64,000 nucleotides of DNA from Escherichia phage KM01, in the sequence record PV018827, one strand, 5' to 3'. The translations under genes were made by a program, and so were the position numbers. Positions 40 through 600 of the stretch are shown here, in pieces. The notes beneath the pieces were generated by a model, which searched no databases, was not told the DNA's origin, and was given only the letters and a program-made list of their open reading frames with translations. Numbering within the stretch: position 1 is the stretch's first letter; each line of letters opens with the position of its first letter.

Positions 40-600
40 GGGTAGCTAATGAATAGGATGGTATACACGGGGAAATAATTACGGGGAGTAGGCACGGGGA
101 AAGGTGGAACATGTAAAGGGAAGGTAAAGGCATTGCCAATAACCCTTTTTTAAATGAGGACTCCCCCTTTTTAGGAAACACGCGGCGAGCGGCTAGCCCC
201 ACTCGGTCAAATCAGAATTTTAAACAGATATATACATCTTTATTTTTTATAAATCTGTATTTTAAACTCTTATATATAAGGTTAAGAGAGGACTTATGTG
301 GAAAATTAAGTTAATCATTAAGCAATTCAAATGTGATCATGAGTACTATCGGATACGCAAAGCTTACGGGGATGAAAGAGTTCACACCCTTTATAAGTCC
401 ACTTGGAGATGTAGTAAATGTGGTAAGCTTAAGCACAGCACATGGATGGATAGGCCTTAACGTGACATAGCCTTTATGGGGGTGCCTTAACATGAAGTCC
501 CCTTTATGACATGCCCTTTACTTCAGCGTACACGGGTTGTTGGTATGAGGTGGCATTAATGCAAGAAAAGGTCTTATGATGTGCCCTTTATACTTTTATT
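40..600. repeat. Non-coding leader with short direct repeats
   Basis: No credible ORF; ACGGGGA recurs three times near 65-110; two ~29-bp units GCCTTAAC(G/A)TGA...CCTTTATG near 445-520 plus further CCCTTTA(T/C) copies to ~590. Confidence 0.35.

What the first reader, a model, noticed from the sequence alone, without database searches (positions are those of the whole stretch)
40..600. Repeat-rich non-coding leader at the left end of the window
Seen in sequence: ~600 bp without convincing ORFs, with three ACGGGGA copies, two ~29-bp GCCTTAAC...CCTTTATG units and further CCCTTTA repeats, followed by the first plus-strand genes. Inference: it could contain host-RNAP early promoters, a packaging or terminal-repeat boundary, or iterons.
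Basis: seen in the sequence. Interest (0 to 1): 0.35.

Follow-up and report, generated by a model that had tools for sequence, protein, structure and literature searches.

The report
Phage genome end: terminal repeat, leader
This stretch is the left physical end of a phiEco32-like (Kuravirus) coliphage genome: the already described 193-bp direct terminal repeat, then one small conserved gene and an array of short repeats that probably help the packaging enzyme recognise the DNA. It is mostly ordinary, with a few undescribed details.

Summary
The repeats are real and far from chance, but most of the region is a known feature. Window 2-194 aligns base for base with the 193-bp direct terminal repeat (DTR) whose ends were mapped in phiEco32, SU10, YF01 and Paul. 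The ACGGGGA copies lie inside it. "No convincing ORFs" is wrong: 296-460 encodes a conserved 54-aa CxH...CxxC protein. The "29-bp units" are really a ~15-bp tandem array, core SCCTTWAY, with six copies in the gene-free spacer 454-592.

Details I did not find in the papers I could read:
- ACGGG[G/T]A forms two co-oriented arrays, one in the DTR and one about 300 bp upstream in relatives' right arm. Both switch to ATGGGTA in SU7-like phages.
- Both DTR boundaries sit in CT|AG within a shared GCT|AGCC. The 8-bp palindrome GGCTAGCC is unique in the 64 kb.
- The layout parallels T7's CCTAAAG repeats in and beside its terminal repeat.

No sigma-70 or gp36-type promoter, Rfam family, stable fold or DnaA-box cluster was found.

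Best reading: the packaging-initiation end of a T7-style DTR genome. The identification is solid; the role of the repeats as terminase signals is inferred. Low interest.

The parts
2..194 (+). Left copy of the 193-bp direct terminal repeat (DTR). The genome's physical left end is at window base 2 (5'-AGCCTTTC...).
   Evidence: Aligns end to end with phiEco32 1-193 and 77362-77554 and with the YF01 repeat_region 1..193 / 78434..78626. The right-end copies stop exactly at ...GAGCGGCT, which is window 194. Paul's 1..193 is annotated as a PhageTerm DTR.
38..100 (+). M1 array inside the DTR: ACGGGTA (38-44) and ACGGGGA (67-73, 81-87, 94-100), all in the same orientation.
   Evidence: Same relative positions in 8 Kuravirus loci. 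Replaced by ATGGGTA at 66/94/109 in SU7-like phages, together with the matching right-arm array.
124..175 (+). Most conserved core of the DTR: TAAAGGC (an inverted M2 copy), CCCTTTTTTA (143-152) and CCCCCTTTTTA (163-173).
   Evidence: Nearly invariant over 11 genomes and retained in SU7-like phages. Matches the 'highly conserved region ~130-170' of PMC9965538 and the CCCTTTTTTA-10 nt-CCCTTTTTTA repeat of PMC4281155.
191..198 (.). GGCT|AGCC, an 8-bp palindrome centred on the DTR right boundary (194|195). Candidate terminase cut site.
   Evidence: Only copy of GGCTAGCC in 64 kb. The left boundary in relatives reads ...GCT|AGCC, ACT|AGCC, TCT|AGCC or TAT|AGCC. Blunt ends were reported for SU10 (PMC4281155).
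195..295 (+). A+T-rich spacer between the DTR and the first gene. Contains a 42-bp tandem duplication (209-234 / 251-276), an IHF-consensus match (210-222) and the ribosome-binding site GAGAGGA (286-292).
   Evidence: No sigma-70 consensus promoter.
296..460 (+). Conserved small gene (54 aa, basic, CxH...CxxC, zinc-ribbon-like). Function unknown.
   Evidence: PHROG 7696, E=6e-17. Conserved in Kuravirus and SU7-like groups. Excess of third-codon-position variation, 19/15/33.
454..592 (+). M2 array: co-oriented ~15-bp units TGR-N4-[GC]CCTT[AT]A[CT] at 454, 470, 484, 500, 514 and 584, with a degenerate unit at 552. The first unit overlaps the gene's stop codon.
   Evidence: Six or seven units are present in every relative examined, including SU7-like phages, despite indels between units.
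596..870 (+). Repeated gene-start cassette TTATTCAGAGGAG followed by the first larger gene (616-870, homologue of phiEco32 gp4).
   Evidence: PHROG 12698, E=1e-50. The cassette recurs before extra small genes in MN05, NJ01, 172-1 and PE006.
1501..1540 (+). Context: terminator-like hairpin (1501-1516) and the first phage-sigma (gp36-type) late promoter motif TAATGTAGA (1532-1540).
   Evidence: Same motif and position as the SU10 late promoter 'between CDS3 and CDS4'. A promoter upstream of phiEco32 gene 6 was mapped experimentally (PMC8948821).
1552..3636 (+). Context: small terminase candidate (1552-2025) and large terminase (2095-3636).
   Evidence: Annotated as putative TerS in YF01. A profile of it weakly hits the PaP3 small terminase 6w7t, E=0.0085. 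TerL is annotated in all relatives.

Best explanation
Window 1-620 is the left physical end of a Kuravirus (phiEco32-like) genome.

Shown by homology to mapped ends: bases 2-194 are the left copy of the 193-bp direct terminal repeat, and 194|195 is the repeat/unique boundary.

Shown from sequence: 296-460 is a real small gene, and two families of short oriented repeats are concentrated here. M1 (ACGGG[G/T]A) lies in the DTR. M2 ([GC]CCTT[AT]A[CT]) forms an array of ~15-bp units at 454-592 and has inverted copies in the DTR.

Inferred: replication yields head-to-tail concatemers with one repeat copy per junction, as proposed for phiEco32 and T7. The terminase (TerS at 1552-2025, TerL at 2095-3636) assembles on the repeat arrays that bracket the junction. 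It cuts bluntly in the CT|AG centre of the (G)GCT|AGCC sequence found at both repeat boundaries. It then packages rightward from this end. The early genes and their promoters lie at the far end, so that end would be packaged last and injected first. The repeat arrays would then be the recognition part of the signal and the palindrome the cleavage part. The layout parallels the CCTAAAG arrays in and beside the T7 terminal repeat and, more loosely, the R sites of lambda cosB.
For: - Identity as DTR: full-length alignment to both copies in phiEco32 and YF01, with the right copies ending exactly at window 194. DTR features are annotated in YF01 and Paul. Ends were mapped by restriction/primer walking, nanopore, 454 read drop-off and PhageTerm (PMC9965538, PMC4281155).
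- Non-random repeats: M1 has 5 copies in 620 bp against 0.19 expected; M2 has 10 against 0.07.
- Conservation of the arrays: M1 occupies the same positions in 8 Kuravirus loci. A second co-oriented M1 array lies 280-430 bp upstream of the DTR in relatives' right arm. Both arrays start with ACGGGTA, then carry ACGGGGA in Kuravirus or ATGGGTA in SU7-like phages. The spacers between copies are unrelated in the two arrays, so this concerted change points to a shared binding factor.
- The M2 array keeps 6-7 units with a conserved TGR 6 nt upstream of the core in both genera.
- Both boundaries lie in CT|AG, and GGCTAGCC is unique in 64 kb.
- TerS and TerL lie immediately downstream.
- T7 shows the same layout in its real sequence: CCTAAAG three times in the TR, 8 exact (11 with near-variants) copies at 175-355, and further copies left of the right TR.
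Against: - No experiment links M1 or M2 to terminase or to any other protein.
- The right end of this particular genome is outside the window, so the repeat's second copy cannot be checked here.
- Window base 1 is C, where relatives have T before AGCC.
- The left-boundary context varies (GCT, ACT, TCT or TAT before AGCC), and 172-1 has CC|AG at the right boundary. Only T|AGCC / CT|AG is general.
- TerS is about 92% identical between the two genera while M1 differs, so M1 may be read by another protein.
- The first M2 unit and the fourth ACGGGGA are constrained by coding sequence.
- In SU7-like records the deposited terminal redundancy is 53-55 bp or 275 bp, not the 249 bp between the homologous boundaries (PMC8399022). 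The boundary rule therefore may not generalise.
- The packaging direction is inferred only by analogy with T7.
Confidence: 0.6

Rival explanations
1. The repeats are transcription-control sites. The A+T-rich spacer (195-295) would hold a weak host-RNAP promoter for the left-end genes gp1-gp5. M1 and M2 would be operator or activator sites for a phage regulator, for example the basic zinc-ribbon protein encoded at 296-460, next to the M2 array.
For: The genes at 296-1495 lie upstream of the first mapped gp36-type late promoter (1532-1540) and behind no mapped promoter (PMC8948821). The SU10 authors listed a 'potential sigma-70 promoter' upstream of CDS1 and classed CDS1-3 as early. The 54-aa protein has net charge about +9 (my count from the sequence), and its gene abuts the M2 array. 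In relatives the right-arm M1 array lies about 110-170 bp behind the leftward early promoter.
Against: No sigma-70-like site in 1-620 meets a lenient 9-of-12 criterion. The best hand-found hexamers are 3/6 plus 4/6. The only gp36-like motif, TAATGAATA at 47-55, breaks the GTA present in all six listed promoters, and one-mismatch hits are at chance level (23 found, 17.8 expected). Both M1 arrays have the same orientation although the flanking transcription units diverge. Four of the M1 copies sit inside the terminal repeat, an odd place for an operator.
Confidence: 0.2
2. The arrays are iterons of a replication origin or sites that prime DNA synthesis at the genome end. The A+T-rich 195-295 would be the unwinding element.
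For: Direct, co-oriented short repeats lie next to an A+T-rich stretch. The distantly related GAP52 carries five perfect DnaA boxes in its equivalent gene-free left region. This hints that origins can sit near this junction in the wider group.
Against: There is no DnaA-box cluster in the window's first 620 bp or in any Kuravirus or SU7-like locus. The single match at 297 overlaps the gene's start codon. No initiator gene is adjacent; the replication genes lie far to the right. No unusual single-strand folding was found (z=+1.6). The GC-skew turn at about 30 kb follows the change in gene orientation, not this site.
Confidence: 0.12
3. The M2 array is a non-functional by-product of slippage and duplication at the 3' end of the small gene and of recombination at repeated gene-start cassettes. 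Only the DTR itself is functional.
For: The first unit is the gene's own ...GAT AGG CCT TAA end. The spacer is an indel hot spot where small genes come and go: phiEco32 +130 bp, WFI101126 and PE006 +64 bp, MN05-type extra ORF. One unit (552) has decayed in this window.
Against: Unit number (6-7), orientation, the core and the TGR 6 nt upstream persist across two genera whose spacer is only about 70% identical. The same core recurs inverted inside the most conserved part of the DTR. The enrichment is extreme.
Confidence: 0.08

Closest known systems
193-bp direct terminal repeat of phiEco32 and other Kuravirus phages (SU10, YF01, Paul)
   Same: Same sequence: invariant at most positions over 11 genomes. 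Same length, same two boundaries, same downstream genes. The conserved core at about 130-170 and the CCCTTTTTTA pair have been described (PMC9965538, PMC4281155).
   Different: Only the left copy is in the window. This phage carries the 42-bp duplication at 217-258 and lacks the small-gene insert that phiEco32 has in the M2 spacer. I did not find the M1 and M2 arrays or the boundary palindrome in the papers I could read. Savalia 2008 and Pavlova 2012 were not available.
Phage T7 terminal repetition with its flanking short-repeat arrays (called SRL and SRR by Dunn and Studier 1983; names from memory)
   Same: A short exact DTR (160 bp against 193 bp). A co-oriented heptamer is repeated inside the repeat and in arrays just outside it on both sides of the concatemer junction: T7 CCTAAAG at 17, 41 and 60, then 175-355, and before the right TR. 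Concatemer packaging with precise cuts.
   Different: The sequences are unrelated. The Kuravirus has two motif families rather than one, and M2 is inverted inside the repeat. These phages encode no RNA polymerase of their own, whereas T7 RNAP has been implicated in T7 packaging (PMC4281155). The function of the T7 arrays is itself unsettled (my recollection). I saw no T7 counterpart of a palindrome at both boundaries.
Lambda cosB (R1-R3 small-terminase sites plus the IHF site I1 next to the cut site cosN)
   Same: Several repeated sites of about 15 bp lie between the cleavage site and the terminase genes. There is a consensus IHF match 16 bp from the cut (210-222). The candidate cut site is symmetric.
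   Different: Lambda makes 12-nt cohesive ends and has no terminal repeat; blunt ends were reported for SU10 (PMC4281155). The IHF match is at chance level (12 found, 8.1 expected) and is altered in SU10 and some SU7-like phages. No homology to gpNu1 was shown.

Membership tests
Kuravirus 193-bp direct terminal repeat | Sequence homologous over its full length to an experimentally mapped DTR | tested here: met
   Window 2-194 aligns without gaps to phiEco32 1-193 and YF01 1-193. Most columns are invariant over 11 genomes.
Kuravirus 193-bp direct terminal repeat | Boundaries coincide with the mapped genome ends | tested here: met
   The right-end copies of phiEco32 and YF01 begin at AGCCTTTC (window 2) and end at GAGCGGCT (window 194).
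Kuravirus 193-bp direct terminal repeat | The same sequence is present at both ends of this very genome | not testable with these tools
   The window holds 64 kb of a genome of about 77 kb. The right end is not included and no reads are available.
Kuravirus 193-bp direct terminal repeat | Genome context: small genes, TerS, TerL and portal follow rightward | tested here: met
T7-type terminal repeat with flanking short-repeat arrays | An oriented short motif repeated inside the repeat and in arrays just outside it | tested here: met
   M1 is in the DTR and in relatives' right arm. M2 is in the left arm, with inverted copies in the DTR. T7 pattern verified. This is a resemblance in layout only; there is no sequence homology.
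T7-type terminal repeat with flanking short-repeat arrays | Phage-encoded single-subunit RNA polymerase taking part in concatemer processing | tested here: not met
   phiEco32-like phages use host RNAP with a phage sigma factor and have no RNAP of their own (PMC8948821, PMC4281155). So this is not a member of the T7 system, only similar in layout.
Lambda-type cos site (cosN + cosB) | Staggered nicks giving cohesive single-stranded ends and no terminal redundancy | tested here: not met
   Relatives have a 193-bp redundancy. Blunt ends were reported for SU10 (PMC4281155).
Lambda-type cos site (cosN + cosB) | IHF site between the cut site and the terminase-binding repeats | tested here: inconclusive
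   WATCARNNNNTTR at 210-222, but 12 matches in the window against 8.1 expected. Not conserved in SU10, Bas87 or UKE3.
Sigma-70 early promoter | TTGACA-(16-18)-TATAAT-like pair upstream of the first gene | tested here: not met
   No site in 1-620 with at least 9 of 12 matches.
phiEco32 gp36-dependent promoter (tAATGTAtA) | Single element with the AATGTA core, 6-8 nt upstream of the start | tested here: not met
   Within 1-620 there is only TAATGAATA (47-55), whose core is broken. The true first late promoter motif is at 1532-1540.
Iteron-type replication origin | Direct repeats together with an adjacent initiator gene and/or DnaA boxes | tested here: not met
   Repeats are present, but there is no DnaA-box cluster. 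The adjacent genes give only unknown-function PHROG matches or none informative.
Structured non-coding RNA | Rfam match or unusually stable fold | tested here: not met
   No Rfam hit at E<=1 in 1-1600. Fold z-scores are +1.6 (DNA, 1-200) and +0.45 (RNA, 445-620).

The most novel reading that the evidence does not exclude
The two motif arrays and the palindrome together form a complete recognition-and-cleavage code for T7-style exact-end packaging in a phage that has no RNA polymerase of its own. M1 arrays would bracket the left cut, M2 units would load TerS on the left arm, and a symmetric blunt cut would be made at (G)GCT|AGCC at both repeat boundaries. M1 specificity would have co-evolved with a phage protein between Kuravirus (ACGGGGA) and SU7-like phages (ATGGGTA).
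Probability: 0.3. Interest if true: 0.45.

Novelty: already known. Interest (0 to 1): 0.22.

Why it matters
Mostly it settles what the region is: the genome's left end, with the known Kuravirus terminal repeat, not an unexplained leader. That helps annotation. The window starts at the physical end, 296-460 should be called as a gene, and phiEco32's deposited gp1 looks to be in the wrong frame.

There is a modest wider point. A 2026 review (PMC13595956) says that how terminases start and stop packaging in direct-terminal-repeat phages is less understood than in cos or headful systems. Kuraviruses do this without a phage RNA polymerase. The motif arrays and the shared GCT|AGCC boundary give concrete sites to mutate and footprint.

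Tried and rejected
- Sigma-70 promoter scan of 1-2200: nothing in 1-620.
- gp36 promoter motif search: only a core-breaking one-mismatch hit at 47-55, with one-mismatch hits at chance frequency.
- Rfam at E<=1 on 1-1600: no hit.
- Single-strand DNA fold of 1-200 and RNA fold of 445-620: no better than shuffles.
- Tandem Repeats Finder: misses the M2 array and reports only two weak two-copy rows.
- tRNA scan: none.
- DnaA boxes: none clustered.
- IHF consensus: one match, at chance level.
- Pfam on the four left-end proteins: nothing above threshold.
- PDB sequence search with the 54-aa protein: only marginal cysteine-rich hits.
- Savalia 2008 and Pavlova 2012, the primary phiEco32 papers, could not be read. 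Whether they mention these motifs is unknown.
- A literature search for T7 pacB returned PacBio noise.
- I expected T7 to carry a shared short sequence at both repeat boundaries. The real sequence did not bear this out.
- I expected SU7-like phages to have a 249-bp DTR between the homologous boundaries. Deposited records show 53-55 bp or 275 bp instead (PMC8399022), so I dropped that claim.

Full report
**What the window is**

The first 3 kb match 99 phage records, nearly all Escherichia phages of the genus Kuravirus (phiEco32, SU10, YF01, MN03 and others), at 94-98% identity. Over 20 kb the closest records are MN03, Ec3-ASingh and YW01 at about 98%. Several of these records start at their base 1 where the window has base 2. 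The annotated order in phiEco32, YF01, WFI101126 and SU10 is small genes, a TerS-like gene, TerL, portal. The window's ORFs at 616, 863, 1552, 2095 and 3698 follow that order.

**The terminal repeat**

YF01 carries annotated 'direct terminal repeat' features at 1..193 and 78434..78626. Paul has a PhageTerm-predicted DTR at 1..193.

I aligned the window's left end with both ends of phiEco32 and YF01. Window 2-194 is the 193-bp repeat. The right-hand copies begin at AGCCTTTC and stop exactly at ...GAGCGGCT, which is window 194.

[quoted passage not shown] It also says YF01 reads spanning the genome carry the 193-bp repeats, and that 30 phages of the group have 192-193-bp DTRs with a highly conserved stretch at about 130-170 (PMC9965538). 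For SU10, reads dropped off sharply at both repeat ends, which the authors read as blunt ends. They also noted the internal CCCTTTTTTA-10 nt-CCCTTTTTTA repeat (PMC4281155).

The second copy of this genome's own repeat cannot be checked, because the window ends about 13 kb short of the right end.

**Checking the observation**

- ACGGGGA has 4 of its 5 copies in 64 kb inside the first 620 bp (P=4e-10).
- CCCTTTA, counted on both strands, has 6 of 10 (P=5e-12).
- The generalised motifs give 5 copies against 0.19 expected (M1, A[CT]GGG[GT]A) and 10 against 0.07 expected (M2, [GC]CCTT[AT]A[CT]).

Three corrections are needed.

First, the region is not free of genes. ORF 296-460 has a good ribosome-binding site and matches PHROG 7696 (E=6e-17). 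It is present in every relative in three allelic forms that keep KCxHxYY..R...GDER.H..Y.STW.C..CGK....S.W.D(R/K)P. Variable alignment columns fall 19/15/33 on codon positions 1/2/3, which is the signature of a coding sequence. It is a basic, zinc-ribbon-like protein of unknown function.

Second, the fourth ACGGGGA (366) lies in that gene and encodes the conserved AYGDER.

Third, the two '29-bp units' are four of a run of ~15-bp units (454, 470, 484, 500, 514; spacing 16, 14, 16, 14). There is a further unit at 584 and a decayed one at 552.

**The motif arrays in relatives**

I fetched the same region, with the sequence upstream of the repeat where records are circularly permuted, from 18 loci. 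These include four SU7-like phages (Bas87, Bas86, PAS59, TH43) that are only about 70% identical here.

M1 is always on the + strand. In eight Kuravirus loci it sits at repeat positions 37, 66, 80 and 93. A second array of 2-3 copies, about 29 nt apart, lies 280-380 bp upstream of the repeat in the right arm.

Both arrays begin with ACGGGTA and continue with ACGGGGA. In the SU7-like phages both arrays begin with ACGGGTA and continue with ATGGGTA. The spacers between copies are unrelated in the two arrays. I therefore take this joint change of the motif as the best evidence here that a sequence-specific factor reads M1.

M2 keeps 6-7 co-oriented units between the small gene and the next gene in both genera. 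A conserved TGR sits 6 nt upstream of the core (53 and 52 of 57 units for the T and the G). This holds even though the spacer is an indel hot spot where small genes come and go. Inverted M2 copies lie in the repeat, and the copy at 124 sits in its most conserved core.

**The boundaries**

The sequence across both boundaries is similar. The left boundary in relatives reads ...GTGCT|AGCCTTTC, with variants ACT|, TCT| and TAT|. The right boundary reads GAGCGGCT|AGCCCCAC. Both ends therefore lie in the centre of CT|AG in nearly all genomes, within a shared GCT|AGCC.

At the right boundary this forms the 8-bp palindrome GGCTAGCC, which occurs only once in the 64-kb window. A symmetric site cut at its centre fits the blunt ends reported for SU10.

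This is an inference from sequence. The rule is imperfect: YF01 and EC.W2-6 have TAT|AGCC and 172-1 has CC|AG.

**What was not found**

- No sigma-70-like promoter in 1-620. The SU10 authors' 'potential sigma-70 promoter' upstream of CDS1 is unsupported by experiment.
- The known phage-sigma promoter motif tAATGTAtA (PMC8948821) appears only as TAATGAATA at 47-55. That breaks the core shared by all listed promoters. The first proper late motif is at 1532-1540, after a terminator-like hairpin at 1501-1516.
- No Rfam family, no unusual DNA or RNA folding, no tRNA and no DnaA-box cluster.
- An IHF-consensus match at 210-222 is at chance level.

**How it most likely works**

Shown: this is the left end and the terminal repeat; the small gene is real; the arrays are conserved and oriented.

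Inferred: replication gives concatemers with one repeat per junction, as the cited papers propose by analogy with T7. Terminase assembles on the arrays around the junction and cuts at the CT|AG sites. Packaging then runs rightward from this end. The TerS-like gene (weak profile hits to the PaP3 and another small terminase, E=0.0085 and 0.077) and TerL lie just downstream. The mapped early promoters are at the far end (PMC8948821), so that end would be packaged last and injected first, as in T7 (my recollection of the T7 literature).

Which protein reads which motif is open. TerS is about 92% identical between the two genera, with differences clustered at residues 28-40. M2 is unchanged and M1 differs. 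The basic 54-aa protein next to M2 is another candidate reader.

Rival readings are transcription control (0.2), a replication origin (0.12) and duplication debris (0.08). The sequence does not exclude them, but each lacks its defining features.

**Comparison with known systems**

As a feature this is the already described Kuravirus DTR.

In layout it resembles T7. T7's real sequence shows CCTAAAG three times in the 160-bp repeat, 8 exact (11 with near-variants) copies just to its right (175-355), and further copies left of the right-hand repeat. It is not a member of the T7 system: there is no sequence similarity and these phages have no RNA polymerase of their own.

It resembles lambda cosB only in having repeated sites between the cut and the terminase genes. 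The ends are not cohesive.

**Verdict**

This is a real, conserved, functionally important region, but essentially a known one.

The M1 and M2 arrays, their concerted change between genera and the shared boundary sequence are small additions. I could not find them in the accessible papers, but the two primary phiEco32 papers were not available. Interest is low (0.22).

A recent review notes that packaging initiation and termination in DTR phages remain poorly understood (PMC13595956). That is the only reason these motifs might repay a bench test.

Noticed in passing
L001 (phiEco32 EU330206) 254-496: The deposited phi32_1 CDS (296..496) is in a different frame from the zinc-ribbon ORF conserved across all relatives (phiEco32 254..418). 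It corresponds to the window's unconserved ORF 333..470. The annotation is probably in the wrong frame. YF01 and PGN6866 do not annotate the gene at all.
   Followed up: partly
window 209-276: A 42-bp tandem duplication of the A+T-rich stretch just right of the terminal repeat (209-234 against 251-276, 81% identical). It is present in the window, EC.W2-6, MN05, NJ01 and 172-1, and absent in phiEco32, YF01, WFI101126, SU10, PGN6866 and Paul.
   Followed up: partly
L007 (EC.W2-6) about 1990-2010; L013 (Bas93) and L018 (PE006), alignment A3 columns 765-783: A 12-nt insert GTAGTCATC+NNN sits directly before the GATGAC of an M2 unit, at different units in different phages. It creates the palindrome GTCATC-NNN-GATGAC. 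This hints that the ATGAC part of the unit is a half-site, or that a tiny hairpin element is mobile here.
   Followed up: no
L025 (Cronobacter phage GAP52) 443-631: Four forward copies and one reverse copy of the perfect DnaA box TTATCCACA cluster in the 1.7-kb gene-free region upstream of the TerS-like gene. Nothing similar occurs in 7-11, Kuravirus or SU7-like loci. Possibly a DnaA-dependent origin.
   Followed up: partly
L020/L021 (101114UKE3), L016/L022 (PAS59): Deposited terminal redundancies in SU7-like phages disagree: 55 nt in 101114UKE3, 53 bp reported for SU7, and a 275-bp 'repeat_region' in PAS59 that starts 208 nt before the conserved AGCCTTTC end. The boundaries homologous to the Kuravirus DTR are 249 bp apart. 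The true ends of this genus look unsettled.
   Followed up: partly
window 596-608 and 633-645; L009-L011 and L018 near locus positions 2080-2230: The gene-start cassette (C)TTATTCAGAGGAG recurs before successive small genes. It flanks an extra small ORF present only in MN05, NJ01, 172-1 and PE006, which suggests recombination at repeated translation-initiation regions.
   Followed up: no
window 47-55: TAATGAATA inside the terminal repeat is one mismatch from the phage-sigma promoter motif. PGN6866 and Paul have TAATGTATT at the same place, which keeps the AATGTAT core. This may be chance.
   Followed up: partly
window 36234-36333: Three exact TAATGTATA motifs (36244-36252 minus; 36316-36324 plus; a further exact one at 42968-42976 minus) and two one-mismatch copies cluster on both strands in the most A+T-rich kilobase of the window (GC 0.338). 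This is probably the divergent middle-promoter region known from phiEco32 and SU10.
   Followed up: no
window 1: The base before the repeat's first base is C. Every permuted relative has T there (T|AGCC). It may be an extra base at the start of the source record.
   Followed up: no
PMC4281155 (SU10), repeat positions matching window 143-173: The reported variation in T-run length in CCCTTTTTTA between reads came from 454 pyrosequencing, which is prone to homopolymer errors (my knowledge). The authors' reading of imprecise cleavage may be an artefact.
   Followed up: no
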